64,000 nucleotides of DNA from the human T2T-CHM13v2.0 reference genome, Homo sapiens. Position 1 is the first letter of the stretch, and the number at the start of each line of letters is the position of its first letter. Positions 2,078-54,480 of the stretch are shown here, piece after piece. The notes beneath the pieces are model-generated. The model saw nothing but the letters and a program-made list of their open reading frames with translations, did no database searches and was not told where the DNA came from. Where the stretch lies: the NCBI RefSeq assembly GCF_009914755.1, contig NC_060931.1; one strand, given 5' to 3'. The position numbers and the translations under genes are program-made.

Positions 2078-2980
2078 GAGGGAGGAGCCAAGATGGCCGA
2101 ATAGGAACAGCTCCGGTCTACAGCTCCCAGCGTGAGCGACGCAGAAGACGGGTGATTTCTGCATTTCCACCTGAGGTACTGGGTTCATCTCACTAGGGAG
2201 TGCCAGACAGTGGGCGCAGGTCAGTGGGTGCGCGCACCGTGCGCGAGCCGAAGCAGGGCGAGGCATTGCCTCACTTGGGAAGCACAAGGGGTCAGGGAGT
2301 TCCCTGAGTCAAAGAAAGGGGTGACGGACGGCACCTGGAAAATAGGGTCACTCCCACCCGAATACTGCGCTTTTCCGACGGGCTTAAAAAACGGCGCACC
2401 ACGAGATTATATCCCGCACCTGGCTCGGAGGGTCCTACGCCCACAGAGTCTCACTGATTGCTAGCACAGCAGTCTGAGATCAAACTGCAAGGTGGCAGCC
2501 AGGCTGGGGGAGGGGTGCCCGCCATTGCCCAGGCTTGCTTAGGTAAACAAAGCAGCCGGGAAGCTCCAACTGGGTGGAGCCCACCACAGCTCAAGGAGGC
2601 CTGCCTGCCTCTGTAGGCTCCACCTCTGGGGGCAGGGCACACACAAACAAAAAGACAGCAGTAACCTCTGCAGACTTAAATGTCCCTGTCTGACAGCTTT
2701 GAAGAGAGCAGTGGTTCTCCCAGCACGTAGCTGGAGATCTGAGAACAGGCAGACTGCCTCCTCAAGTGGGTCCCTGACCCCTGACCCCTGAGCAGCCTAA
2801 CTAGGAGGCACCCCCCAGCAGGGGCACACTGACACCTCACACAGCAGGGTACTCCAACAGACCTGCAGCTCAGGGTCCTCTCTGTTAGAAGGAAAACTAA
2901 CAAACAGAAAGGACATCCTCACCAAAAACCCATCTGTACATCACCATCATCAAAGACCAAAAGTAGATAAAACAACAAAG
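2078..2980 (+). promoter_or_regulatory. L1 5'UTR internal sense promoter and antisense promoter; YY1 site
   Basis: CpG-rich 5'UTR; YY1 motif AAGATGGCC at 2090-2098; antisense promoter position known from L1 biology. Activity is not demonstrable from sequence. Confidence 0.8.
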
Positions 2981-3996
2981 ATGGGGAAAAAACAGAACAG
3001 AAAAACTGGAAACTCTAAAAAGCAGAGCGCCTCTCCTCCTCCAAAGGAACGCAGTTCCTCACCAGCAACGGAACAAAGCTGGATGGAGAATGACTTTGGC
3101 GAGCTGAGAGAAGAAGGCTTCAGACGATCCAATTACTCTGAGCTACAGGAGGACATTCAAACCAAAGGCAAAGAAGTTGAAAACTTCGAAAAAAATTTAG
3201 AAGAATGTATAACTAGAATAACCAATACAGAGAAGTGCTTAAAGGAGCTGATGGAGCTGAAAACCAAGGCTCGAGAACTACGTGAAGAATGCAGAAGCCT
3301 CAGGAGCCGATGCGATCAACTGGAAGAAAGGGTATCAGCGATGGAAGATGAAATGAATGAAATGAAGCGAGAAGGGAAGTTTAGAGAAAAAAGAATAAAA
3401 AGAAATGAGCAAAGCCTCCAAGAAATATGGGACTATGCGAAAAGACCAAATCTGCATCTGATTGGTGTACGTGAAAGTGATGGGGAGAATGGAACCAAGT
3501 TGGAAAACACTCTGCAGGATATTATGCAGGAGAACTTCCCCAATCTAGCAAGGCAGGCCAACGTTCAGATTCAGGAAATACAGAGAACGCCACAAAGATA
3601 TTCCTCGAGAAGAGCAACTCCAAGACACATAATTGTCAGATTCACCAAAATTGAAATGAAGGAAAAAATGTTAAGGGAAGCCAGAGAGAAAGGTCGGGTT
3701 ACCCTCAAAGGGAAGCCCATCAGACTAACAGCGGATCTCTCGGCAGAACCCTACAAGCCAGAAGAGAGTGGGGGCCAATATTCAACATTCTTAAAGAAAA
3801 GAATTTGCAACCCAGAATTTCATATCCAGCCAAACTAAGCTTCATAAGTGAAGGAGAAATAAAATACTTTACAGACAAGCAAATGCTGAGAGATTTTGTC
3901 ACCACCAGACCTGCCCTAAAAGAGCTCCTGAAGGAAGCACTAAACATGGAAAGGAACAACCGGTACCAACCACTGCAAAATCATGCCGAAATGTAA
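2981..3996 (+). pseudogene. L1 ORF1p (RNA-binding chaperone), frameshifted
   Basis: MGKKQNRKTGNSKKQSASPPP...REKG. A 1-bp deletion at ~3748 (gcagaaccctac vs consensus gcagaaaccctac) splits it; the C-terminus is in ORF 3805-3996 (…YPAKLSF…NHAEM). Confidence 0.95.
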
Positions 3997-4035
3997 AGAC
4001 CATCGAGACTAGGAAGAAACTGCATCAACTAATGA

Positions 4036-7886
<3,851 letters not shown>

Positions 7887-8111
7887 ACAATCAGATCACA
7901 TGGACACAGGAAGGGGAATATCATACTCTGGGGACTGTTGTGGGGTGGGGGGAGGGGGGAGGGATAGCATCGGGAGATATACCTAATGCTAGATGACGAG
8001 TTAGTGGGTGCAGCGCACCAGCATGGCACATGTATACATATGTAACTAACCTGCACAATGTGCACATGTACCCTAAAACTTAAAGTATAATAAAAAAAGA
8101 AAAAGAAAAAA

Positions 8112-12704: not shown

Positions 12705-13320
12705 GTGCCTGTGGTCTATGTGCATAAGTGTATTTTTGTGGAAGCAGATGTCATTCTTTTGATTCAATGTTTAGCATTCCTTTTAGGACCTCTGGTAAGG
12801 CTAGTCTAGTAGAAATGATTTCCTTTTGCACTTGCTTCTCTGAGAAGAAGTTCGTTTCTTCTTCACTTATAACATTTAATTTGGCAGGATATGAAATTCT
12901 TGGTTGGAATTTCTTTACTTTAAGGATAAATAAAATAGGGTCCCAATCACTTCTGTCTTGTAAGGTTTCTGCTGAGAGTTCTGCTGTTAGCCTGATGAAT
13001 TCTCCTCTGTACTTGGCTTGACCCCTTTCTCTAGCTGCTTTTAAGATCTTTTTTTTTCTTTTCCATTGATCTAAGTGAATCTGATTACTATGTGCCTTGG
13101 GGATAGTCATCTTGTATAGTTTCTAGATGGGGTCCTCCATCTTTATTGGATTTGTATATGAATGTCTCTATTGAGATTATAGAAATTTTAATGAACTATA
13201 TTCTCAAATATATTTTTCAAGTTGCTTATTCTCTCCTTTTCCTTCTCATAAATGCTAATGAGTCACATATTGGGTCTCTATACATAATTCCATATTTCTT
13301 AAAGGTTTCAATTTTTTTCA
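12705..13320 (-). mobile_element. Older L1 (L1PB/old L1PA) ORF1 fragment
   Basis: ORF 12751-13110(-): KILKAARERGQ…IRLTAELSAETLQ…FQPRISYPAKL. Confidence 0.88.
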
Positions 13321-13350
13321 AATTTTTTTTATTATTTTACTTTAAGTTCG

Positions 13351-13528
13351 GGTTTAGATAGTATTCTAGGTACTTAAGAAAAAACGTGAACAAGACATAT
13401 ATGTTACAAGAGAGTTTAATTTCTAATTACAAAGTTATCCATATATACTTAAAAATGAAACTTCAATTATTATTAAATTTTATATATCATACAAGAGGCA
13501 GTATCAGAAATTAAACTACAAGTCCAGT
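13351..13528 (-). repeat. Inverted copy of unique sequence 24971-25148
   Basis: Manual alignment gives 175/178 identity in reverse complement. Confidence 0.95.
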
Positions 13529-15754
13529 TTATTTATTTTATTTTATTTTAAAATTTTACTTTAAGTTCGGGTTTACATGTGCAGAATGTGCAAGTTTGTT
13601 ACATAGGTACATATATGCCATGGTGGTTTGCTGCACCTGTCAACCCATCATCTAGGTTTTAAGCCCCACACACATTACGTATTTGTCCTCATGCTCTCCC
13701 TCCCCTTGCCAACCACCCCTCAACTGGCCCCGGTGTGTGTTGTTCTCCTCCCTGTGTCCATGTGTTCTCATTGTTCAACTCCCACTTATGAGTAAGAATA
13801 TATGGTGTTTGGCTTTCTGTTCCTGTGTAAGTTTGCTGAGGATTATGGCTTCCAGCTTCAACCATGTCCCTGCAAAGGACATGATCTCATTCTTTTTATG
13901 GCTGCATAGTATTCCATGGTGTATACGTTCCACATTTTCTTTATCCAGTCTATCATTGACGGACATTTGGGTTGGTTCTATGTTTTTGCTATTGTAAATA
14001 GTGCTGCAATAAACATACATGTGCATGCATCTTTATGGTAGAATAATCTATATTCCTTTAGGTACATACCCAGTAATGGGATTGCTGGGTCAAATGGTAT
14101 TTCTGATTCTAGATCTTTGAGGAATTGCCACACTGTCTCCCACAATGGTTGAACTAATTTACATTTCCACCAACAGTGTAAAAGCGTTCCTATTTCTCCA
14201 CATCCTCTCCAGCATCTGTTGTTTCCTGACTGTTGTTTAATAATTGCCATTCTCACTGGTGTGAGATGGTATCTCCTTGTGGTTTTGATTTGCTTTTTTC
14301 TAATGATCAGTGATGATGAGATTTTCTTCATATGTTTGTTGGCCACATAAATGTCTTCTTTTGAGAAGTGTCTGTTCATATCCTTTGCCCACTTTTTAAT
14401 GGGAATGTTTGTTTTTTTCTTTCAAATTTGTTTAAGTTCCTTGTAGATTCTGGATATTAGACCCTTGTTAGAAGGGTAGATTGTAAAAATTTTCTCCCAT
14501 TCTGCAGGTTGCCTGTTTACTCTGATGCTAGTTTCTTTTGCTGTGTGGGAGCTCTTTAATTAGATCCCATTTGTCAATTGTATCTTTTGTTGTAATGGCT
14601 TTTGGTGTTTTAGTCATGAAGTCTTTGCCCATACCTATGTCCTGAATGACATTGTCTAGGTTTTCTTCTAGGGATTTTATGGTTTTGGGTCTTACGTTTA
14701 AGTCTTTAATCCATCTTGAGTTAATTTTTGTATAAAGTGTAAGGAAGGGGTCTAGTTTCAGTTTTCTGCACATGGCTAGCCAGTTTTCCCAACACCATTT
14801 ATTAAATAAGGAACTCTTTCCCCATTGCTTGTTTTTGTCAGGTTTGTCGAAAATTAGATGGCTGTAGATGTGTGGTGTTATTTCTGAGGTCTCTGTTCTG
14901 TTCCATTGGTCTTTATGTCTGTTTTGGCACCCAGTACCATGCTGCTGTGGTTACTATAGCCTTGTAGTATAGTTTGAAGTCAGGTTGCATGATGCCTCCA
15001 GCTTTGTTCTTTTTGCTTAGGATTTTCTTGGCTATATGGGCTCTTTTTGGGTTCCATATGAAATTTAAAGTAGTTTTTTTCTAATTCTGTGAGGAAAGTT
15101 GATGGTAATAATATCGAATCTATAAATTAACTTGGGGAGTATGGCCATTTCATGACATTGATTCTTCCTATCCATAAGTATGGAATGTTTTTCCATTTTT
15201 TTGTGTTGTCACTTATTTCTTTGAGCTGTGGTTTGTAGTTCTCCTTGAAGAGGTCCTTCACATCCCTTGTAATCTGTATTCCTAGGTATTTTATTCTCCT
15301 TGTAGTAATAGTAATTGTGAATGGGAGTTCATTCATGATTTTGCTCTCTGCTTTTCCATTGTTGGTGTATGGGAATTCTTGTGATTTTTGCACATTGATT
15401 TTGTATCCTGAGACTTTGCTGAAGTTGCTCATCAACTTAAGGAGTTTGGGGACTGAAACAATGGGGTTTCTATATATAGGATCATGTCATCTGCAAACAG
15501 AGACAATTTGACTTCCTCTCTTCCTATTTGAATACCTTTTTTTCTTCTTCTTGCCTAAGTGTGTAGGCCAGAACTTCTAATACTATGTTGAACAGGAGGA
15601 GTGAGAGAGGGCATCCTTGTCTTGTGCTGGTTTTCAAAGGAAATGCTTCCAGCTTTTGCCCATTCAGTATGATATTGGCTATGGGTTTGTCATAAAGAGC
15701 TCTTATTATTTTGAGATATGTTCCATCAATACCTAGTTTATTGAGAGTTTTTAA

Positions 15755-16945
15755 AATTTATTTTTATTAATTTATTTATTATTTAATTAATTTCTATTAT
15801 ACTTTAAGGTCTGGGATACATGTGCAGAACGTGCGGGTTTGTTACATAGGTATACATGTGCCATGGTGGTTTCCTGCACCCATCAACCCGTCATCTACAT
15901 TAGGTATTTCTCCTAATGTTATCCCTTCCCTTGCCATCCACACCCTTACAGGCCCCAGTGCGTGATATTCCCCTCCCTATGCCCATAAGCTCTCATTGTT
16001 CAGCTCCCACCTATGAGTGAGAACATGTGGTGTTTGGTTTTCTGTTCCTGTGTTAGTTTGCTGAGAATGATGGTTTCCTAAAAAGGACATAAACTCATTC
16101 TTTTGTATGGCTGCAGAGTATTCTATGGTGTATATGTGCCACATTTTCTTTATCCAGTCTATCATTGATGGACATTTGGGATGGTTCCAAGACTTTGCTA
16201 TTGTGAATAGTGCTGCAATAAACATATGTGTGCATGTGTCTTTATAGTAGAATGATTTCAGCAGCACATTAAAAAGCTTATCCACCACAATCAAATCAGC
16301 TTCATCCCTGGGATACAAGGCTGGTTCAACATATCCAAATCAATAAACGTAATTCATGACATAAACAGAATCAATGACAAAACCACATGATTATCTCAAT
16401 AGATGCAGAAAAGGCCTTTGATAAAATTCAACACCCCTTCATGCTAAACACACTCAATAAACTAGGTATTGATGGAACTATCTCAAAATAATAAGAGCTA
16501 TTTATGAAAATCCCACAGCCAATATCATACTGAATGGGCAAAAGCTGGAAGAATTCCCTTTGAAAACTAGCACAATACAAGTATGCCCTCTCTCACCACT
16601 CATATTCAACATAGTATTAGAAGTTCTGGCCAGGGCAATCAGGCAAATGAAATAAATAGAAAGTATTCAAACAGAAAGAGAGGAAGTCAAATTATCTCTG
16701 TTTGCAGATGAGATGATTGTATATTTAGAAAACCCCGTCGTCTCAGCCTATAAACTCCTTAAGCTGATGCACAACTTCAGCAAAGTTTCAGGATACAAAA
16801 TTACTGTGCAAAAATCACAAGCATTCCTATAAACCAATAACCGACAGAGAGCCAAATCATGAGTGAACTCCCATTTACAACTGCTACAAAGAGAATAAAA
16901 TACCTAGGAATACCACTTACAAGGGATGTGAAGGACCTCTTCAAG
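15755..16945 (-). mobile_element. Nested 5'-inverted (twin-primed) L1PA7-like element
   Basis: TSD GAGAGTTTTTAA at 15743-15754 and 16946-16957. Poly(T) and 3' end at 15755-16258(-); inverted ORF2 block at 16259-16945(+); 3'UTR 'ccgtcatctacattaggtatttctcc'. Confidence 0.92.
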
Positions 16946-18030
16946 GAGAGTTTTTAACATGAAGGGATGTTGAATTTTGTTGAAGGCCTTTTTTGCATCT
17001 ATTGAGATAATCACGTGGTTTTTGTCATTGGTTCTGTTTTTGTGATGGATTACATTTATTGATTTGCTTATGTTGAACCAGACTTGCATCCCAGGTATGA
17101 AGCCAACTTGATCATGGTGGATAAGCTTTTTGATGTGCTTCTGGATTTGGTTTGCCAGTATTTTATTGAGGATTTTTGCATTAATGTTCATCAAGGATAT
17201 TGGTCTGAAGTGCTCTTTTTTTGTTGTGTATCTGCCAGGTTTTGGTATCAGGATGATGTTGGCCTCCTAGAATGAGTTAAGGAGGAGTCCCTCCTTTTCA
17301 ATTATTTGGAATAATTTCAGAAGGAATGGTACGAGCTCCTCTTTGTAACTCTGGTGGATTTGGGCTGTGAATCCATCTGGTCCTGGGATTTTTTTGGTTG
17401 TTAGGCTATTAACTACTGACTCAATTTCAGAACTTGTTATTGATCTCTTCAGGGATTTGACTTCTTCCTGATTTAGTCTCGTAGGGTGTATTTGTCCAGG
17501 AATTTATCAATTTTTTCTAGACTTTCTAATTTATTTGCATAGAGGTGTTTATAGTATTCTCTAATGGTAGTTTGCATTTATGTGCAAACAGTGGTGATAT
17601 ACTTTTTTTCATTTTTTATTGTGTCTATTTGAATCTTCTGCCTTTTCTTCTTTATTAGTCTAGCTAGCAGTCTGTATATTTTGTTAATTTTTTTCAAAAC
17701 ACCAGCTTCTGGATTCATTGAGTTTTTGAAGGGTTTTTTGTGTCTCTAGCTTCTTCAGTTCTGCTCTGATCTTGGTTATTTCTCGTCTTCTGCTAGCTTT
17801 TGAATTTGTTTGCTCTTTCTTCTCTAATTCTTTTAATTGTGATGTTAGGGGGTTGATTTGAGATCTTTCCAGCTTTCTGATGTGGGCATTTAGTGCTATA
17901 AATTTCCCTTTTAACACTGCTTTAGCTGTGTCCCAAAGATTCTGGAACATTGTCTCTTTGTTATCATTGGTTTCAAAGAACTTCTTGATTTCTGCCTCAA
18001 TTTTGTTATTTACCCAGGAGTCGTTCACGA

Positions 18031-19812
18031 GCGCTGAAATTGAATCAGTAATATAAAACCTACCAACCAAAAAGAGCCCTAGGCAAGATGGATTCACAGT
18101 TAAGTTATATCAGATGTATAAAAAATTGCTACCAATCCTACTGAAAACATCCTGAAAAAAATTAGGAGAAACGATTACTCCCTAATTCATTATATGAAGC
18201 CAGCATCAACCTAAAATATGACAGAGACATGATGAGGAAAGAAAAATTCAGGCCAATATTCCTGATAAACACGTGCACAAAAATTCTCTGCAAAATACTG
18301 GCAAACCGAACCCAGCAGGATATCAGTAAGTTAATTCACAATTATCAAATACACTTTATCCTTGGGATGTATGACTTATTCAGTCTACGCAAATCAACAA
18401 ACGTAATTCACAACATAAACAGAATTAAAAGCAAAAACTATATGATCACCTCAATAGATGCAGAAAAAGCTGTCAATAAAATTCAACATCACTTTGTGAT
18501 AAAAACTTTCAACAGACTAGACATAGAAGAAACATACCTCAAAATAATAAGAGCCTTCTACAAAAAATCCATAGCCAAGATCATACTGAATGATTAAAAG
18601 CTGGAACCATTACCCTTGAGAAATGGAATAAGATGAGGATGCACACTTGCATTACTCCTATTCAACATAGTACTGGAATTCATAGCCAGAGTAATCAGAC
18701 AAGAGAAAGAAATAAGGCATACATAAATGGGAAAAGAAAAAATCACACTATCTCTTTGCTGCTGCTGATTCTATAGTTATAAAACACTAAAGACTCCACC
18801 AAAAGTCTAATAGAACTGTCAAATAAATGTATCAAGTTTTCAGAATACAAAATCAATGTACAAAAAGTAGTAGCATTTCTATATACCAATTATATCAAGC
18901 TGAGAATCAAATCAAGAACACAATCTCATTTACAATAGCCACACACACAAAAATGAAATACGACTGCAGCTAACCAAGGAGGGGAAAGATCTCTATGAGG
19001 GGAACTACAAAACACTGAAAGAAATCAATGATGATAAAAACAAATAGAAGATTATCCCATGCTCATAGATTGAAAGAATTAATATTATTACAATGGTCAT
19101 TACAGATTCAATGATATTTCTATCAAACAACCAACATCATTCTTCACAAATTAGAATAAAAAACTATTCTAAAATTCATATGGAACCAAATAAGAGCAAT
19201 AGCCAAAGAAATCCTACGCAAAAAGAACAAACCCAGAGGCATCACACTAATGAACTTCAAACTATAGTATGAGGCTACAGTAACCAAAATAGCATGGTAC
19301 TGGTGCAAAAACAGACACATAGACCTATGGAACAGAAAAGACAAGGCAAAAATAAAGCTGTACACTTACAAGCATCTGATCTTCCATAGGGCTGACAAAA
19401 ACAAACAATTGGGAAAGGACTCTTGATTCAATAAATGGTACCGGTTTAACTAGCTAGCCATATGCAAAAGAATGAAACTGTACACTTACCTTTCACCATA
19501 TATGGAAATTAACTCAAGATGGATTAAGATTCAAATGTAAGAACTCAAACTATAAAAATCCTTGAAGAAAACCTAGGCTATACCCAAAATGTACAAGTGA
19601 AACCTAATTAAACCAAAGAGTTTTTTTCACAGCAAAAGTAACTATCAACAGAGCAAACAGATAAGAAAAATGAGAGAAAATATTCACAAACTTTGCATCT
19701 GACATAGGTCTAATATCCATAATCTATAAAGAATTTTAAAAATTCAACAACCTCAAATAAATAATTTTTTTAAGTGTGCAAAAGACATGAACAGACACTT
19801 CTCAAAAACAGA
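18031..19812 (+). mobile_element. Older L1 (L1PB/L1MA-like) ORF2 fragment
   Basis: ORF 18229-18597 KFRPIFLIN…SIDAEKA; collinear decayed ORF2 up to 'gacatgaacagacacttctcaaaa'. Confidence 0.9.
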
Positions 19813-21660
19813 TACTTCTACTAAAATTTTGAAAAAAATACATAATATCATCACATGCATATGATATCTAAGTAATTTTGTCTAACTTGGAACTAAATAA
19901 GTTCATTTTATTCAGCATAGAATTATTCCTGCACCCTCAGCATCAACCTTTAATTTTGGAAACAGGGTAAGAAACACACTTTTAAAGTTTTATATACCTT
20001 TTGTCCCTAGTGAGTTTCAGGAACACACCAACTGTGAAGAAGTTCTAAGCCCTTAAAGAACATCTCTTTCATGGGGAAAAAGTAATCACTCAAGAAACAA
20101 CCCCAGCAAAGTGAAAAATGTATCTAATAAAATCAAATAGGGAGGCAAGTAAAAAAGAGTTATAAGTGAATGTGACCTGAAAACATTAAAAGTGGAAATG
20201 TGTGTGACTAGATAGGATTTGATTGTCAGTTCAGACTCATATGAATCAGACCAAACTTTACTAATTAATTGTAAGAATAAGAAAATCAAGGGATTCTGAC
20301 AAGGCATAGAATGGTATAGGACATCAAAGACATTTTATACTACCTAGAGAATTGTGTATCTCAAGTGATATTTTTCAAGGAGCTCTACTTCACAGAACTA
20401 TAGGTCCTGGGTTTTACTTACTAGATACCACATGTTAGCCAGGGATATTATACTAACAGCATTTCAGAGATGAGGTACCTTTCTCTGAGCAAATATTATT
20501 AATCTCTTTCTTTACCAGTGCAATTGACAAGAAGATTAGACTAGCTCCTATGGCTTCTTATCTTATTTCCCTAGATGCATTCCTCTAGAAGAGTTAGTAA
20601 ATGGATTTCAGGTCAACTGTTTTAACTCCTTTCTCTTAGAAAAGAAAAGAAAATACATTAAGAACTGAGAATTAAAAGATTATTCTTTGACTGGATAAAA
20701 GATTTAAAGGCATATGATTCTAAATCTATGGATCCAGTTACACTAATTGGTTAGATTAAAAATAGTATCTATCAAATATAATATTGTAATATGTGATTCT
20801 TTTTTATAGTTATAACATCTAAACAAAATTGGAAGTGCCTAATTGAGTTATAAAACAGTATATAATTCTACAAATCTTTAAAATGTAAAACCAGTGTTTC
20901 AGAAACAGATAAGATGGAGTAAATACACACCTCCCTTAATTCAGAGGACAATTATTTGAAAACTCTAAAGAGAAAATATGAGCAGACAAATCAGGGAAGA
21001 AAACCAGAATTTGTACTGTAACAAACCAGTTGTGAGTGTACCACTTTTCTCTCTCTGGCATCCTCTGACCTGTACTCAATGTAATCCAAAACCCATAAGT
21101 GAGCAATCTGGGGTAGGATGAGAGACTAAAATCCAGAAGAATCTCTTTAGTCCTGGCTTATGGAGTAATTAAAAAAACCCCACAAGTTCTAGATTATTAT
21201 AACTGCATTATTTTGCCATATTATTATATTTACACTAGAGGACAATACAGTAATTTTTTTATTAACAATGGAAACCAAACCAAACAAACAAACAAAAACA
21301 AAAACAAACTTAAAGACACCATCCCAGCAGAAGAAATGTGAATTTATACTAAATACAAAATAATACAAATACATCAGACAGATATCCAAAAGAGCGTGTC
21401 TTTTTCCTACTGAATATTGAATAAAAATAAAATATGCACACAATGTGGGGCTGTCACTGAATGTTCTGATCAAACCTCTAAAGAACTAAACATAGATAAT
21501 GATGAGTTGTGTGTGTGTGTCTGTGTGTAGTTCTGAGCATGTACTTGTGTGGGGAAAAGAGAATAAAAATAAGTAAAATCAAATTTCGCCCCAAAATAAT
21601 TATTTTTCTTTGTAACGTAAGTATATATATCACACTTTGTTAATCAACATCAGAACCCAT

Positions 21661-22135
21661 TACAGGATAGTTTCCTGGGTGGTCTTAGATTGACCAGCCT
21701 GGCTCTCCCCACTTTCTAGTTTGAAATTCTCAAGAATAACTATAAAATGTACTGGGAATGCAACATCCTGAAATAAGAGTAGAGCTGGCTGTAATGGCCC
21801 GGGATGTGTTTTAGCTTCCTCCCAGAAAAGGATGTAACTCAGTGCTTTAGCTCAGTGATTCATATTACCCCAAGGTATATAACCCAGAGTGGGATACCTT
21901 TCAGGGTCCCTCAGCTGCAGTTCAAGTGGGAAACATGCAGCAAAGACTTCATCTGCCCCAGGCAGCTTTCTGACCCTTGAAGTACTGGCTCACAATAAAT
22001 CCCAGACTGCTGTTGTCTCTTCCTGCCTATCTGTATGTAATGAGCATGATTTATATAATTTGTTGATTATGAGTGTGTTCTGTCTCACTAGGCTCAGACA
22101 AGTTGATAACCAGTGCACAGTCAACCAGCTCCACA
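21661..22135 (+). mobile_element. Solo LTR, ERVL class (LTR47-like)
   Basis: 5-bp TSD CCCAT at 21656-21660 and 22136-22140; TATA-like 'ggtatataa' at ~21873; AATAAA at ~21994; ends …CCACA. Family name from memory. Confidence 0.65.
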
Positions 22136-23477
22136 CCCATGTCTAGCTTAAAAAAAAAAGAGAGAAGAGGAAAGTATTTTGGAAAGAGAAGAAAAATAAA
22201 AAATAAAATAATAATAATAAAAAAACAGGACCAGAAGTATATTTTACTGTAGGGCACTAGAAATGAGCTGAAATTAAAAGAAATATATTATTTTACATGA
22301 TAATGTACATTTTTCTCCCAACTTCTACTTAAGATAGAAAAATCTGAAAGGAACATACCTCCAATCACTATGACAAGAAGAAAAGCGATATAATCTATGT
22401 AACCATAGTTTTTCTTCATCCCATCAGATACCTGAGGTCACACAGCAAAAAACTAGCATTAAACCTAAGACAAGAGAGACACTACCAGGGAGAGATGTGA
22501 ATGTAAGCTCTTGTTACCTGAGGCAGATTCTGGGCGCTATACAAACTAGTAATAATAATTCAGGTAAAATATTTAATGAATGTTTCAAAGCTGAATGTGG
22601 GATAGGCTGAGAGTATACTGATACTGGAGCATAAAAAACAAGGGAAATTACACCCACCTACATCTTTTAGCAATACATCTCACAGGCGCTCACTAGAAAG
22701 ATTGGTCACAAGGCAGGGGACTAGAGAAAGCTTCGCACACATGGCAGGCTTAGGAGAGCCAAGGAACAGCCACTGCAGGATGAATTGACTGGAGGGATCC
22801 GAGACCCACTCTCTTATTTTTCCTTCTGAACAAAAGCCTGAAGACACTGGGGTAGGATGGTAAACGTTACCATACTCAGGGTATAGGGTGAAGACCATTA
22901 CCACTGGAGGAAATAAATAGAAAGAGAAACTTTGGGCTTTGGGACCCAGACCATAGCAGATCCCCTATCATTGCAGATGTGAGAAATATTGATTTTCTCT
23001 CATTCCTAACACCCAGGGATGGACCACATGCCTAAGACTAAGGCTGAAATGAGCAAATAGAATTCCAAGTAACAAAAAACTTTAGTCCACTATTAAGGAA
23101 TAAGAAGAAGGAAGAAAGAGCATCTTTGAGGTGCAGGATTATAGGGGAAACCTAAAGCTGAGGTAGAAGAGAAATATTGAGAAAATGAGTCAAGCAACCC
23201 AGCAATCATCCAAAATACATGAAACATTAGAAGAGTTTGAAGCATGCGGAGGTTCACAATGACAACAAAAATGAAAATAAGCTCAACTCCTGACTAGATC
23301 ATGTCAACTCCTCACACTAAAGGCCTATCAAAAGAAGGGGGTCTGTCACACAAGAAAGTAAACATAACTATGCTTAATATGTTAAAGGCTGTTACATGAT
23401 ATGCATTAACATATCGGGAATTTCAGCTCTGCAACTAAAACCTGTCGAGGTAGATACAATGCAACAGAAGGTTTCTA

Positions 23478-23680
23478 CTAGTGCTTCCGGGTGGAACTTC
23501 CTGCGATGATGGAAATGTTCTATCACTCTTCTGTGTCCCATATGGTGGCCACTGGGCATATGTGGATGTTGAGCGCTTGTAATATAGCTGAGTAACTGAA
23601 ATTCTAGGTTTATTTAATTTTACTTAATATACATTTAAATAGCCATATATAGCTAATGGCTACTACATTGGACAGCTCAA
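23478..23680. mobile_element. MER3-like hAT-Charlie DNA transposon fossil
   Basis: 'gaacttcctgcgatgatggaaatgttcta…tggtggccact…tttaaatagccatatatagctaatggctact…ttggacagc'. Confidence 0.8.
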
Positions 23681-24758
23681 GATAACCACTTTCTTATGAA
23701 AAATCACTACTCCCTCAATTAAATAACTCCTACTTAAGGACCTAGAAATCAATTGTGTCTAATTAGATTGTTCACAGAGATTAAAAAGAAAACTGAAATT
23801 TGACTATCACAGCAGGATATAGGATGTATTTATTCTTTTAACTTTGTATTATGCAGTCATTCTTCTGTTTCACAAGAATTTTAGTAGGAGTTTTCAGAAT
23901 GGGTTGTGTAACCTTTTGAATATTTACTGGTTCTTAAATGCAATAGAAATACAATACACAAAAAAACACAATTCACTAGAAAACACGAATATTTACCTTT
24001 TTTATCCTCATAGAATAAAAATAATAACAGATTATTGACAGAAGATTTACCTGGTTAACCCTCTGATGATTTCTGTACTAAAATATATTTTACTAAAATA
24101 TTTAAAATAGCATTCTTTCTTAAAATATTTTAGAGATCATAATTGATTTGCAGTTTTAGTATTCTATTCCACTGTTTTTTAAACTAATGTGAGTTATAGC
24201 TAAATACTTTTATATTGAAAAAATTACTTGTGTTTTCCTTTGATTTTTTACAGAAAACTTACATAAGTAGTATTTAGATAAATGAAAAACCAGAAGTAAA
24301 CTCTTCTTGTAGGAAATCATCTTTTTTTGGTATAAACTCATGTATCTCATCTAGACAATCAGTGCTTTTATTTTTGTATCATATGTATTTTATTTAGTAG
24401 AATAGCTCATCTAAACAATTATTTTATTTTTATATTATATATATTTTATTTAGTCAAAAAACAAAAGGTGAATAGTTTAATAAAAATCAGCAATAAACAA
24501 ATTATTAGAAAAGATATTTTTCTTAGAGCAGGAAATACTAGTTTATCTTTTTAAACTATCAAATGTTGTTTCGATTTTTACCATGAATACTTTTTGCCTC
24601 ATTTACCAGAGTGGATATATGCCTTGAATATATGCTCTTGTACATACCATTTACCACAGAGTAGTGTATGGCAGGAGTAGTGGTGGTAAATTATATGTGC
24701 AAGGACATATATCCAAGACTACAGCCTAAATAAGCACCATAACAAATATTGAACTTGT

Positions 24759-24970
24759 GAGGGGTAGGGGGTAATGGGAGGGACAGCATAAAGACAAATA
24801 CCTAATTCATGTGGGGCTTAAAACCTAGATGATGGGTTGATAGGTGCAGCAAACCACCATGGCACATGTATTCCTGTGTAACAAACCTGCACATTCTGCA
24901 CATGTATCCCGGAACTTAAAGTATAATCTAAACAATAAAATAAAATAAAATAAAATAAATAAATAAATAA
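24759..24970 (+). mobile_element. Short L1 3' end (L1PA8-like) with AAAAT tail
   Basis: 'gtggggcttaaaacctagatgatggg…gaacttaaagtataa' plus (AAAAT)n. Degenerate TSD: aaatattgaacttgt (left) vs aaactggacttgt (right). Confidence 0.9.
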
Positions 24971-26493
24971 ACTGGACTTGTAGTTTAATTTCTGATACTG
25001 CCTCTTGTATGATATATAAAATTTAATAATAATTGAAGTTTCATTTTTAAGTATATATGGAGAACTTTGTAATTAGACATTAAACTCTTTTGTAACATAT
25101 ATGTCTTGTTCACGTTTTTTCTTAAGTACCTAGAATACTATCTAAACCTCCCAGTCTAATTATGCCTATAAAGCAGCAAACGCTTAGAAAGGTGTTCACA
25201 AAATTTTAATCTTGGAAAAAACCTCAGACATAATCTTGTTCATATGCCTGCATTTAACATTAATCACTCTTCTTTTTTCATTTGTGAGTATTTGAGCTTA
25301 TAAATACATCTACTAAAAAAAAGAAAAAAAAAGAAAAATTAAAAAACAAAACAAGATTCAGTATTACCCTACTCTTACCTTAAAAAGCAATACAGGAAAT
25401 AAATATAGGCTATCCAGACCTATAAGCTAGATGTGGCCTTGTTAGTCCCCATCTTTGACTTTCCACACCTTGTCCCATTTCACCCCATTCTCATCTATGA
25501 ACAACTGTTTTCCTCTCATTAATCAATTAAATAAACATAGAAGAGTGATGTTCAAAATATTTAATAACAGTAAAATTATACATGTATGATCTTGTCAAAG
25601 CAGGGCATTAAATCATCAAATAGTGTCAGTCACAAATATATTGTACATACCGCCATATGGGTATAACTCATCTAGATAACAGTCCTGAAAATGTAAAAAT
25701 TTATAAGAAAAATAGAAATAATTCTAGAAGTATGTGTCAAGTGTTGTGCAAAATCGTGATATTTGATTTTTGCAATATACGATAAGATACGACTCTCTTC
25801 TATCAATATTAGAACACTAAATCTTGGTGAAATTAAGTTACTTTCATGAAAGTAACTGCAGAAGGTAGAATTAGAATGTAAGTCTTCAGTTAAAGTTCAG
25901 TTTTGGTTTGTTACATCAAACACGGGAAATGTGTAAAAATTAAAAGAACCAAGCTAATCTCATAAGAGATAAAATCTATAGTTATATATAGTTAATATAT
26001 ATGAAGAAGTATTTTCTTCTTCTTTCCATTGTTGTTTTATTTCAAGGATATTTGGAAATGGATTATAGACTAAGAAAACCTGTAACAAGCACACATGTAC
26101 ATGTTTGTATGTTTGTTTCTCTTGGAGTAGAGAGACTTCCAGGAGAGAAGTGTTATAACATGTAAATGAATGATCAATAATCACACCTGAAAATGCAGAT
26201 AAGGCCTTTGCAAATGCATTATTTTAGAGGACAGTTCCATAGATTTGGAAATATCTCACTGCCCCTGGGCTGTTCTCTGCCATCTCCTTCGATTAATCCT
26301 CTTAAGCCAAGCTTCACATTGACCCGCTTCCCCAGTGAGGTTTCAGGTTTCGGCCTCCACAGCTCCTCTCTATCCACGCCTTCACTGACCCATAGGCCTC
26401 ATTATGGTTCCCACCAAAATGCTTACGATCATTTGTCTCATTATTTCCAATCTTTTCTGACCATATATTTTATAAACATGTCTCTGTCATAAA

Positions 26494-34095: not shown

Positions 34096-35840
34096 GCAGT
34101 AGATTTTCAATGCCACCTGTCAAATGCTCCCCAGGTTGACTCTGCCTTCTCTCTCTCTACTATGACTTGTGCAATATATCAGCAAAAGAAAAATAAGTGA
34201 GAGGAGTTTTTGGATGCAGAAAAGTTTCTCAGATCTAGGTGACAGTGAAATAGTGAATATCAACACTTTCAGTTTTCCAAAGGCCAATAATGAAGAAACA
34301 AAAAAAATTTTAAAAATAACTGAGAGCAATACACACTGAGAAGCAAAATTTAGGGACTTTGAGAAGAGGAATCATGTCATTGCAGCCTGCAGGATTGCAT
34401 TCTGAGAATGAGACACTTGCACTAAAGCAAAATTAAGATGGAGGTTGAAGGATGGGTTTTGTTGATTAATATTATTTCTTTATAATAACACTAATAAGAA
34501 GTAGAATTCAATATTCTAAATAGCAACTATCAGTTGATTTTAAGGATTACAATATAAATTTATGTCAATTGATTGTATTTATAAAGTATTTTATAGCTAT
34601 TTAAAAATATTATGTTTTGCATTTGAAATAATATTTTGGAATTATAATTTAAATAATGAAATACATAAAGTTGTCATTGTTAGTATTTAAAATAGATTAC
34701 CTAATTTTATGATAGTTTGAGTTTTAAAATGTCAATACTACTTAGAATGCTTTCATACACCTAAATGTGAAAAAAAATAGAAAAAGTTTAGAGATAATTA
34801 TCAACCTATTTTTTATTTCTGCAGCCCACAAGACAAATGTGACACCAAAATTTCATAACTTAAAAAGCACATTAGACCTTTCCTGACAATATGATGCACC
34901 TCCAAAATCATAGGCAGCAATACTTTCAAAAATCAGCTCCACAGCTACCTCACAAAGACTTACCTCATTTTGATGATTTCTTACAGTTCTAAACACTGTC
35001 ATTGTAAGACTGTTCTGTACACAACCTTAAGTTCCAAAATGAGGAAGGACATTTTCTAGGCTTCATACTGTGTTTGGAGAGAATGAGGTTAATATTTTCC
35101 CTCAGCAGTGAGGATCTGCAGTCCAGCATCTTTAATATAGAGACTGCCAGGGGAACAGGAAGCAATGATGGGAATTACTTTTTCCCTTTTCCCTCTGTGA
35201 AAACTATGAGGAATATGTCTAAAAGGGTAAAATGATTTAACTTAGAGATTGGGTAGAAGATTACATTTCTTACTCTTTTTCTTCTCATTGCTGATTAAAA
35301 CCCTCTTCTACCTCCAAAGCAACAACTTGTCTTTGAGATTCAATTCTCTATTTTCTCTGGGGAAATACAAACACTAACTTGATCTTTATTTAGCAGTAAT
35401 CTCCAAAGTGTAGCACGTGTATACAATTACAATGACTTTGTAGCAGTTCTCTAAGTTCCTTCACTTAGAGAACAACCTAAGTGCTGATATTAGACTACTT
35501 AGGTTATCATCCTATCCATTTATTTGTTCATTCAGGAGTTCAGTCAGGCTTTAGAGCTTTCACCCGGCAACGGTCAACTACCAACTAGACATATAGGTTT
35601 CTGGGAGACAAAACGTAGATAACATGTGATTCACATCTTCCAAAAGTTTAGTTTCAGGAGAAGGCAAATATGTGAACAAATAATCATGATATAACTCATA
35701 GTGGGATATTTGAAGTGTGAAAAAATAGATCCTAGAATACAGATTTCTAAATCTATGAATTCTATGCTTCATAGCACACGCGTGTGCACGTGCACACACA
35801 CACACACACACACAGGACAAGATCAAGAAAACAAATAGTT

Positions 35841-49341: not shown

Positions 49342-54480
<5,139 letters not shown>

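What the first reader, a model, noticed from the sequence alone, without database searches (positions are those of the whole stretch)
13334..13575. Recent 178-bp inverted templated insertion copied from 11.5 kb away into an old L1 tail
Seen: 13351-13528 is the reverse complement of unique DNA at 24971-25148 (3 mismatches in 178). It is bracketed by an exact 23-bp duplication of the L1 terminus ATTTTACTTTAAGTTCGGGTTTA (13334-13356 and 13553-13575). One junction uses 6-bp microhomology GGTTTA; the other lies in the shared (AAAAT)n tails of two oppositely oriented L1PA8-like 3' ends. The 1.7% divergence is far lower than that between the two L1s, so this is not a transduction from insertion time. 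Inference: a double template switch (FoSTeS/MMBIR/SDSA-like). Synthesis jumped from one L1 tail to the other, copied its flank, then returned upstream of where it left. It mimics a 3' transduction but is DNA-templated, and creates a long-range inverted repeat.
Basis: partly seen in the sequence, partly recalled or inferred. Interest (0 to 1): 0.8.

Follow-up and report, generated by a model that had tools for sequence, protein, structure and literature searches.

The report
Templated inverted patch in L1 tail
A 219-bp patch was added to the end of an old, decayed L1 element long after it landed, copied in reverse from unique DNA beside another L1 fragment 11.5 kb away; it is a clean example of a known kind of DNA copying error, not a new mechanism.

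Summary
13351-13528 is the reverse complement of 24971-25148 with 3 mismatches in 178. It is bracketed by an exact 23-bp duplication at 13334-13356 and 13553-13575. In the whole T2T genome the 172-bp copy and the 23-mer each occur only at these two places.

The donor is the 3' flank of a ~170-bp L1 fragment. The copy carries that fragment's target-site duplication and 23 nt of its compound (TTTA)n(TTTTA)n tail.

The recipient is a 2.2-kb L1 3' fragment with 7.1% private substitutions. The duplicated terminus and the 6-bp junction microhomology GGTTTA both contain changes private to that L1 (0 of 20 relatives). The event therefore came long after insertion, so it is not a 3' transduction.

After the event, 13351-13722 is colinear with the reverse complement of 24758-25148. 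This points to a homeology-anchored switch into the other L1, copying out into its flank, and a microhomology return 23 bp behind the departure point.

DNA versus RNA template is unresolved; I favour DNA. The ape orthologue test could not be run.

This is a member of known classes: MMBIR-type templated insertion and small inverted duplication. Interest is modest.

The parts
13310..13333 (-). Native A-rich tail or target of the recipient L1 (L1#1). It reads T7CAAAT8ATT on the + strand and is not an (AAAAT)n tail.
13334..13356 (-). Left copy of the 23-bp L1#1 terminus (B). Its last 6 nt, GGTTTA (13351-13356), are the junction microhomology with the donor (25143-25148).
13357..13527 (+). 171-bp inverted copy of unique donor DNA (donor 25142-24972). 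The 3 mismatches lie at 13410, 13421 and 13437. It includes the copy of L1#2's target-site duplication (ACAAGTCCA, 13518-13526) and an ATTAAA hexamer at 13510-13515.
13528..13550 (+). Copy of 23 nt of the donor L1's compound microsatellite tail: (TTTA)2(TTTTA)3, against (TTTA)4(TTTTA)4 in the donor.
13551..13552 (.). AA filler. It has no template in the donor or in the recipient's native context.
13553..13575 (-). Right copy of the 23-bp L1#1 terminus (B), contiguous with the L1#1 body.
13576..15753 (-). Body of L1#1, a 5'-truncated 2.2-kb 3' fragment. It is 84% identical to the window's full-length L1 and has 34 private substitutions in 478 columns. Its first ~150 nt are homeologous to L1#2 (19 mismatches in 147).
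24750..24758 (+). Candidate 5' target-site duplication of L1#2 (TGAACTTGT). It matches 8 of 9 with TGGACTTGT at 24973-24981.
24759..24927 (+). L1#2, a ~170-bp 3'-end fragment of an L1, inverted relative to L1#1. Its terminus B' is at 24905-24927.
24928..24971 (+). L1#2 tail: CTAAACAA followed by (TAAAA)4(TAAA)4. Only part of the microsatellite was copied.
24972..25148 (+). Donor: unique 3' flank of L1#2. It starts with L1#2's 3' target-site duplication (24973-24981) and ends with the TAAACC microhomology (25143-25148). It continues into unique DNA with no duplication and no poly(A).

Best explanation
This is a templated insertion that formed long after the L1 inserted, made by two switches of a DNA 3' end between DNA templates.

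Proposed path:
1. A nascent or broken strand was copying L1#1 towards its tail and ended at the left edge of the 23-bp terminus.
2. It left its template and engaged the inverted, homeologous L1#2 3' end 11.4 kb away. The two share 87% identity over ~150 nt, with exact runs of 31, 23 and 19 nt.
3. It was extended through part of L1#2's microsatellite tail and 171 nt of its unique flank.
4. It then fell off and re-annealed to its own template through the 6-nt microhomology GGTTTA at the right edge of the 23-bp terminus. That is 23 bp behind where it had left.
5. It therefore copied the terminus a second time.

Shown:
- the structure;
- the direction, locus 2 to locus 1;
- the timing, well after L1#1 had decayed;
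- the microhomology;
- the colinearity with the donor.

Inferred:
- that the template was DNA;
- that the process was replicative (MMBIR/FoSTeS-like), or two-ended SDSA with both ends extended, possibly from a staggered break;
- the origin of the 2-nt AA filler.

Consequence: the pre-existing ~190-bp, 84-87% inverted L1/L1 homology grew to a ~372/391-bp inverted repeat whose outer 200 bp are 98% identical. No function is indicated.
For: 1. Structure. Net insertion 13357-13575 = 171 unique + 23 tail + 2 filler + 23 duplication.

2. Uniqueness. The 172-mer and the 23-mer each occur twice in 3.1 Gb, only here.

3. Direction. At locus 2 the segment runs on into unique DNA. It begins with L1#2's candidate target-site duplication (TGGACTTGT against TGAACTTGT at the L1#2 5' edge, 8 of 9). 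The locus-1 copy carries that duplication plus the donor's compound (TTTA)n(TTTTA)n motif.

4. Timing.
- L1#1 differs from the agreed state of 20 relatives at 34 of 478 columns (7.1%).
- 3 of 178 mismatches has P=6e-9 if both copies were as old as L1#1, and P=1e-3 if only one had aged.
- The adjacent L1 parts differ at 19 of 147 sites (Fisher P=7e-5 against 3 of 178).
- Both 23-mers share changes private to L1#1. GGTTTA and TTCGGG occur in 0 of 20 relatives, and GGATACA in 20 of 20. The microhomology used at the junction therefore did not exist when L1#1 inserted.

5. Homology guidance. 13351-13722 aligns colinearly with the reverse complement of 24758-25148 through flank, tail, terminus and L1 body. 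A random insertion would have to hit the right element end, in the right orientation, within a few bases.

6. Precedent, from passages read.
- MMBIR templated insertions are inverted copies flanked by microhomology (PMC8421209).
- Two template switches, the first in inverted repeats and the second at microhomology, underlie DUP-TRP/INV-DUP (PMC11293582).
- The four-point model includes events where the return point precedes the departure point (PMC7954356).
- 277 polymorphic inverted duplications, median 284 bp, mostly with 1-15 bp microhomology, are known in humans (PMC12350158).
Against: - The first switch is not a clean homologous extension. The donor's 8 nt TTGTTTAG and some repeat units between B' and the copied tail are missing, and 2 untemplated bases (AA) sit at the junction. 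Slippage of the 3' end into the microsatellite plus a filler must be assumed.
- A 17-23-bp flanking duplication is also the hallmark of staggered (ORF2p-type) nicking.
- Nothing in the sequence excludes an RNA template.
- The template is 11.4 kb away. Described small templated insertions use templates within 100 bp or 2 kb.
- The three mismatches fall within 28 bp (P=0.06). They could be synthesis errors, so the age estimate may be too old.
- No orthologue, population or read data were available.
Confidence: 0.65

Rival explanations
1. RNA-templated patch. A transcript of the minus strand at locus 2 was reverse-transcribed at a staggered break in the L1#1 terminus. The route would be either target-primed reverse transcription by L1 ORF2p in trans (class-1 TSI-like) or reverse-transcriptase-mediated break repair. 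The transcript could, for example, be read-through beyond LINC02476, whose 3' end lies at 34798 on that strand. The bottom-strand 3' end (...GTAAAAT) primes, and the top-strand end (...GGTTTA) joins the cDNA by microhomology.
For: - The flanking 17-23-bp duplication is in the range of L1 target-site duplications.
- 5'-junction microhomology and short fillers are usual at such insertions.
- The insert ends in A's on the + strand (13550-13552).
- An ATTAAA hexamer lies upstream at 13510-13515.
- Templated sequence insertions from RNA, with and without target-site duplications, are documented in humans (PMC5110952, sections read).
- The hub's gene table puts a minus-strand lncRNA upstream of the donor.
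Against: Three of the four class-1 features are not met.
- The A run is 2-3 nt, not 10-40.
- The nick sites read AAAT/AA and TTTA/CA, not TTTT/A.
- The hexamer ends 34-37 nt before the end, outside 10-30 nt (against the definitions).

An insertion in trans has no reason to land 11.5 kb from its source. It also has no reason to land exactly at the homologous end of an inverted L1 in the colinear orientation. No transcript evidence was examined.
Confidence: 0.15
2. The structure dates from the insertion of L1#1. It would be either a 3' transduction from L1#2 or a reverse-transcriptase template jump between RNAs during retrotransposition. The high identity would be due to later gene conversion.
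For: The layout (L1 end, A-rich tail, then the unique flank of another L1) superficially looks like a 3' transduction.
Against: - L1#2 is only a ~170-bp fragment and cannot be a source element.
- The L1 bodies differ at 19 of 147 sites while the flank differs at 3 of 178.
- The segment is followed by a second copy of the L1 terminus, not by poly(A).
- The duplicated terminus and the junction microhomology contain mutations private to L1#1 (0 of 20 relatives), so they arose after insertion.
- P=6e-9 for 3 mismatches at L1#1's age.
Confidence: 0.02
3. By-product of an inversion of about 11.4 kb with staggered breaks. This leaves inverted duplications at the two ends of the inverted segment.
For: The two copies are inverted and lie at the two ends of the interval 13529-24970.
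Against: - The ancestral order implied would place the flank next to L1#1's terminus and separate it from L1#2's tail and target-site duplication, with which it is contiguous now.
- It does not explain the direct 23-bp duplication or the 6-bp microhomology.
- It needs more steps than a patch.
Confidence: 0.03
4. Assembly artefact, or a change private to the CHM13 cell line.
For: None found. It is listed because reads could not be inspected.
Against: - Three mismatches between the copies are not expected for a very recent event or a mis-join.
- A 200-bp repeat 11 kb apart is well within the length of a single long read (my knowledge, not a call).
Confidence: 0.02

Closest known systems
MMBIR-type templated insertions (MMB-TI; Osia et al. 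2021, PMC8421209, passages read)
   Same: - Inverted copy of a template in cis.
- Junction microhomology: 6 bp here, 2-12 bp there.
- Return to the original template.
- Found as germline variants.
   Different: - The template is 11.4 kb away here, against within 100 bp in their definition.
- The insert is ~200 bp.
- One switch is anchored in ~150 nt of retroelement homeology rather than microhomology alone.
Four-point template-switch model in great-ape genomes (Walker et al. 2021, PMC7954356, passages read)
   Same: - Two switches.
- The middle fragment appears as a reverse complement.
- The model includes the class in which the return point (4) precedes the departure point (1). That arrangement gives the flanking duplication seen here.
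   Different: Their search space is about +/-100 nt around the mutation cluster. This event is two orders of magnitude longer in range.
Inverted-repeat-mediated two-step template switching (DUP-TRP/INV-DUP; PMC11293582, passages read)
   Same: The first junction lies within a pair of inverted repeats. The second junction is at microhomology.
   Different: - There the repeats are kilobase low-copy repeats with stretches of 100% identity, and the product is a large copy-number gain.
- Here the repeats are 87%-identical L1 ends and the gain is 219 bp.
Polymorphic small inverted duplications in 1,019 long-read human genomes (PMC12350158, passages read)
   Same: - Size: their median is 284 bp.
- Inverted orientation.
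- 1-15 bp microhomology at junctions.
- A replicative origin was proposed.
   Different: Their class requires the template within 2 kb of the breakpoint. At 11.4 kb this one would fall under their 'interspersed' duplications. I could not find the numbers for those, since Supplementary Table 17 was not among the held text.
Templated sequence insertion polymorphisms, class 1 and class 2 (Onozawa & Aplan 2016, PMC5110952, sections read)
   Same: - A 73-414-bp-scale patch copied from elsewhere with the donor left intact.
- A flanking duplication as in class 1.
- Microhomology and filler as in class 2.
   Different: - It fits neither class cleanly. There is no real poly(A), no TTTT/A site and no well-placed signal, so it is not class 1. 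It has a 23-bp duplication, so it is not class 2.
- Their donors are distant or on other chromosomes and are thought to be RNA. Here the donor is 11.5 kb away in cis and homology-linked.
L1 3' transduction
   Same: Unique DNA lying 3' of one L1 ends up attached behind the tail region of an L1.
   Different: - The source is a 170-bp dead fragment.
- The L1 bodies are unrelated copies.
- There is no terminal poly(A).
- The event came after the recipient had decayed.
It is a mimic, not a member.

Membership tests
L1 3' transduction | The transduced segment lies directly 3' of the source L1 at the donor locus. | tested here: met
   The donor 24972-25148 follows L1#2's tail.
L1 3' transduction | The source element is retrotransposition-competent (full length), and the offspring L1 body derives from it. 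| tested here: not met
   L1#2 is ~170 bp. The L1 bodies differ at 19 of 147 sites, against 3 of 178 in the flank.
L1 3' transduction | The transduced segment ends in a poly(A) tail, and the whole insertion is flanked by one target-site duplication. | tested here: not met
   The segment is followed by a second copy of the L1 terminus. The 23-bp duplication brackets only the patch.
L1 3' transduction | It has the same age as the L1 insertion. | tested here: not met
   P=6e-9. The junction uses mutations private to L1#1.
Class 1 templated sequence insertion (ORF2p-mediated; PMC5110952) | Target-site duplication of at least 5 bp. | tested here: met
   23 bp exact, or 17 bp if the 6-bp microhomology is assigned to the insert.
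Class 1 templated sequence insertion (ORF2p-mediated; PMC5110952) | Non-templated poly(A) of 10-40 nt. | tested here: not met
   Only AA at 13551-13552, or 3 A's counting the last base of the tail unit.
Class 1 templated sequence insertion (ORF2p-mediated; PMC5110952) | Insertion at a 5'-TTTT/A-3' site. | tested here: not met
   The implied nicks read AAAT/AA (bottom strand) and TTTA/CA (top strand), as read.
Class 1 templated sequence insertion (ORF2p-mediated; PMC5110952) | Polyadenylation signal 10-30 nt upstream of the A tract. | tested here: not met
   ATTAAA at 13510-13515 ends 34-37 nt before the insert's end. There is no AATAAA on that strand.
Class 2 templated sequence insertion (break patch; PMC5110952) | No target-site duplication. 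Microhomology, microdeletion or non-templated bases at the junctions. | tested here: not met
   Microhomology (6 bp) and filler (2 nt) are present. A 23-bp duplication is also present, and there is no deletion.
MMBIR-type templated insertion (PMC8421209) | The insertion is an inverted copy of a template in cis, flanked by microhomology. | tested here: met
   It is inverted. One junction has 6 bp (GGTTTA). The other junction has a 2-nt filler next to L1 homeology.
MMBIR-type templated insertion (PMC8421209) | Template within 100 bp of the insertion (operational definition of MMBSearch). | tested here: not met
   11,372 nt lie between the arms.
MMBIR-type templated insertion (PMC8421209) | Made by a DNA polymerase on a DNA template during replication or break-induced replication. 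| not testable with these tools
   The sequence geometry fits DNA and RNA templates alike.
Inverted-repeat-mediated two-step template switch (PMC11293582) | Junction 1 lies within a pair of inverted repeats. Junction 2 is at microhomology. | tested here: inconclusive
   Junction 2 is met. Junction 1 lies at the edge of inverted L1 3' ends (87%, exact runs up to 31 nt). It has a skipped 8 nt and a filler rather than a clean recombinant join.
Lineage-specific (hominid or hominoid) insertion | Absent at the orthologous site of more distant primates while the donor is present. | not testable with these tools
   No primate genomes are held: 'It has no relatives here'.

The most novel reading that the evidence does not exclude
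This could be one visible case of a recurrent, unrecognised class that might be called 'pseudo-transduction'. A stalled or broken 3' end inside the terminus of one decayed L1 (or Alu) invades a nearby diverged copy. It copies out of that copy into its unique flank and returns by microhomology. Unique DNA would then move between retroelement loci without RNA. The products would mimic 3' transductions in source-tracing pipelines, lengthen inverted repeats and seed later inversions.
Probability: 0.15. Interest if true: 0.55.

Novelty: new member of a known kind. Interest (0 to 1): 0.33.

Why it matters
The locus is a well-resolved natural example of a two-switch templated insertion. Its timing can be read from the sequence alone, because the junction uses mutations that the host L1 acquired after landing.

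It shows that such patches can use a template 11 kb away when diverged retroelement ends provide an anchor. It also shows that the product can pass for a 3' transduction with a target-site duplication.

That is a caution for pipelines that call transductions or ORF2p-mediated insertions from layout alone. It is also a small addition to the catalogue of ways inverted repeats grow.

It does not open a new question, and no function is indicated. The region is intergenic and outside the RefSeq enhancer marks in the hub's table.

Tried and rejected
1. Ape or monkey orthologue test: not possible, because the genome tool holds no relatives of this assembly.

3. Pilot scan for further cases. I ran self-megablast for pairs at >=94% identity, 80-3000 bp long, up to 100 kb apart and not tandem.
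- In the window it returns 2 pairs: this event and a pair of young L1 3' parts.
- In 200 kb of chr7 (120,100,001-120,300,000) it returns 1 pair, which is a 7-copy repeat. That leaves 0 further candidates.
- The planned 1.6 Mb could not be fetched, so the scan says little about frequency.

4. 'The (TTTTA)n next to the right 23-mer is L1#1's own tail': rejected. It has the donor's compound order (TTTA)n(TTTTA)n directly abutting CCAG. The left 23-mer is preceded by a different tail.

5. 'The duplication is 30 bp with two later substitutions' (TTTTATT read against TTTTAAA): considered. It is less parsimonious than a 2-nt filler, and it is not excluded.

6. Clean homologous extension from the paired L1 terminus: rejected as the sole account, because the donor's TTGTTTAG is absent from the copy.

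7. Direction locus 1 to locus 2: rejected (target-site duplication and continuity at locus 2).

8. L1 subfamily assignment (L1PA8): not attempted, since no repeat library is on hand.

9. Literature.
- The searches found no paper describing an L1-tail-anchored templated copy of another L1's flank. This covers only the held open-access library.
- One search failed on a syntax error and was re-sent in corrected form.
- The supplement search of PMC12350158 for interspersed duplications found nothing usable.
Full report
OBSERVATION

- 13351-13528 equals the reverse complement of 24971-25148 with 3 mismatches in 178 and no gaps (13410 G/A, 13421 T/G, 13437 A/C).
- The repeat finder reports the same pair as arms 13351-13563 and 24936-25148, with 11,372 nt between them.
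- The 23-mer ATTTTACTTTAAGTTCGGGTTTA is exact at 13334-13356 and 13553-13575.
- In the whole 3.1-Gb assembly the 23-mer has 2 forward and 0 reverse matches, both here.
- The 172-bp core has 2 matches at E<=0.001, these two.

The segment is therefore not a dispersed repeat, and chance is excluded.

SURROUNDINGS

I used the window's full-length L1 (2081-8105, + strand) as a ruler.
- The recipient, L1#1, is a 5'-truncated 2.2-kb 3' fragment on the minus strand (13533-15753, 84% identical to the ruler).
- Its 5' end abuts the T-rich tail of another minus-strand L1 3' end (15791-16258).
- Left of it lies a much older minus-strand L1 piece (12763-13100, 71%).
- The donor-side element, L1#2, is only a ~170-bp 3' end on the + strand (homology 24758-24944).
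- L1#2 is followed by CTAAACAA, a compound microsatellite (TAAAA)4(TAAA)4 (24936-24971), and then unique DNA.

ANATOMY OF THE PATCH

On the + strand the order is:
- native L1#1 tail T7CAAAT8ATT;
- 23-mer B (13334-13356);
- 171 nt of unique copy (13357-13527);
- 23 nt of the donor's tail as (TTTA)2(TTTTA)3 (13528-13550);
- AA (13551-13552);
- 23-mer B again (13553-13575);
- the L1#1 body.

The last 6 nt of the left B (GGTTTA) also precede the donor segment (25143-25148), giving a 6-bp microhomology. The net gain is 219 bp.

Only L1#2 has such a tail. The donor's 8 nt TTGTTTAG between tail and terminus are not in the copy. The two A's have no template.

DIRECTION

At locus 2 the segment continues into unique DNA without any duplication. 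It starts with TGGACTTGT (24973-24981), which matches TGAACTTGT (24750-24758) at the 5' edge of L1#2 in 8 of 9 positions. This is a plausible target-site duplication of L1#2.

The locus-1 copy contains that 3' duplication (13518-13526) and the donor's compound microsatellite in the same order. It was therefore copied from locus 2 after L1#2 had inserted. At locus 1 the segment interrupts an L1 terminus and is bracketed by a duplication of it.

TIMING

A search with 500 bp of L1#1 scored 40 of 10,445 first-look candidates. The best non-self identity was 89%.

I took 20 of the 39 non-self rows, working from the top of the list. Seven rows ranked among them were passed over: three because their match did not start at query base 1, and four for no good reason. 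These best hits are biased towards little-diverged copies.

Against the state shared by at least 80% of these 20, L1#1 differs by substitution at 34 of 478 columns (7.1%).
- If the patch were as old as L1#1, the two copies should differ by about 14%. Three of 178 then has P=6e-9. Even with only one copy ageing, P=1e-3.
- The adjoining L1 parts differ at 19 of 147 aligned sites plus 3 gap columns (Fisher P=7e-5 against 3 of 178).

There is an independent argument from the terminus. All 20 relatives read ...GGATACA at that position. None has GGTTTA or TTCGGG (0 of 20 each). The other four L1 termini printed from the window do not have them either. Both 23-mers carry these private changes, and the junction microhomology is one of them. 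The event therefore happened after L1#1 had decayed.

Absolute age depends on substitution rates that I recall rather than take from a call.
- At 1e-9 per site per year, 3 differences give about 7.5-8.4 Myr (95% interval 1.5-25).
- At 0.5e-9 they give about 15-17 Myr (3-49).
- In relative terms the event falls at about one eighth of L1#1's age.
- Caveat: the three mismatches lie within 28 bp (P=0.06). If they are errors of the copying synthesis, the event is younger.

MECHANISM

After the event, 13351-13722 aligns colinearly with the reverse complement of 24758-25148. The alignment runs through flank (98.3%), tail, terminus and L1 body (87%, exact runs of 31, 23 and 19 nt). The patch extended an existing inverted L1/L1 homology outwards into the donor's flank.

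That colinearity, together with the cis distance of 11.4 kb, is what a homology-anchored strand switch predicts. An insertion in trans would have to achieve it by accident.

The simplest path is as follows.
1. A 3' end that has copied the L1#1 body and terminus engages L1#2.
2. It is extended through part of the tail and 171 nt of flank.
3. It dissociates and re-anneals through GGTTTA at the right edge of the terminus.
4. It copies the terminus again, which yields the 23-bp duplication (17 nt plus the 6-nt microhomology).

A two-ended break in which one end copies the sister chromatid and the other copies L1#2 gives the same product. So does a staggered break. I cannot separate these variants.

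Still to be assumed are the skipped 8 nt and the AA filler. They need slippage of the ...TAAAAT 3' end into the (TAAAA)n repeat plus two untemplated or misincorporated bases.

RIVALS

RNA template. The same geometry fits target-primed synthesis on a minus-strand RNA of locus 2. Measured against the published class-1 criteria (PMC5110952, read), only the duplication is met.
- The A run is 2-3 nt.
- The implied nick sites read AAAT/AA and TTTA/CA.
- The only hexamer on that strand (ATTAAA, 13510-13515) ends 34-37 nt before the insert's end.

Class 2 is contradicted by the duplication. I give the RNA route 0.15. The main reason is that it does not explain the proximity or the colinearity, unless local nascent RNA is used.

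ORF2p as the source of the break. A preprint on L1-induced rearrangements reports that duplications resembling target-site duplications are kept in inverted-duplication outcomes of ORF2p-made staggered breaks (10.1101/2024.12.14.628481, passages read). An ORF2p-made break repaired from a DNA template is therefore a live variant of the main reading.

Other rivals are rejected or unlikely on the evidence above and are listed in the Rival explanations section. These are origin at insertion time, inversion with staggered breaks, and artefact.

COMPARISON WITH WHAT IS KNOWN

The event works like an MMBIR-type templated insertion (PMC8421209). It also works like the four-point template switch in which the return point precedes the departure point (PMC7954356). 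It fails both of their operational distance limits of about 100 nt.

It resembles in miniature the two-step switch of DUP-TRP/INV-DUP, with the first junction in inverted repeats and the second at microhomology (PMC11293582).

In size and junctions it matches the 277 polymorphic inverted duplications in 1,019 long-read genomes, which have a median of 284 bp and mostly 1-15 bp microhomology (PMC12350158). That class requires a template within 2 kb.

It is not a 3' transduction, since four of the five defining features tested are not met.

My searches found no description of an L1-terminus-anchored copy of another L1's flank. This covers only the held open-access library.

IS IT A GENERAL CLASS?

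This is untested in practice. A scan that recovers this event found no other candidate in the window or in 200 kb elsewhere on the chromosome. The larger fetch was not possible.

VERDICT

The feature is real and precisely described. The main reading is sound: a patch made after insertion by a double switch. One junction detail was wrong, and the nature of the template remains open.

It is a new member of a known kind. Interest is modest. Its main value is as a clean, internally dated example and as a warning that such patches mimic transductions.

Noticed in passing
window 6164-8091 and 49419-51341: Inverted pair of young L1 3' parts, 97.5% identical over 1929 bp and about 41 kb apart. One belongs to the full-length L1 at 2081-8105. 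This is a possible substrate for inversion by non-allelic recombination.
   Followed up: no
window 15791-18032: L1 cluster with an internal flip: minus-strand 3' end 15791-16258, plus-strand piece 16251-16949, then minus-strand piece 16946-18032. It looks like a twin-priming-type 5' inversion or a nested arrangement.
   Followed up: no
window 15754-15790: The 5'-truncated end of L1#1 abuts the T-rich tail of the next L1 3' end. Similar strings flank L1#1: AAATTTTTTTTATT at 13320-13333 and AAATTTATTTTTATT at 15754-15768. L1#1 probably inserted into that older tail (read by eye).
   Followed up: partly
window 12763-13330: Old minus-strand L1 fragment, 71% identical to the ruler L1 over 12763-13100. 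It is not in the hub's list of masked stretches and runs up to the tail of L1#1.
   Followed up: no
window 13410-13437: All three differences between the two copies fall within 28 bp of the 178 (P=0.06 for such clustering). This could be chance or errors of the copying synthesis.
   Followed up: partly
window 13546-13555: The junction with the AA filler creates the palindrome ATTTTAAAAT. A snap-back origin of the filler was considered, but the sequence does not fit it cleanly (read).
   Followed up: no
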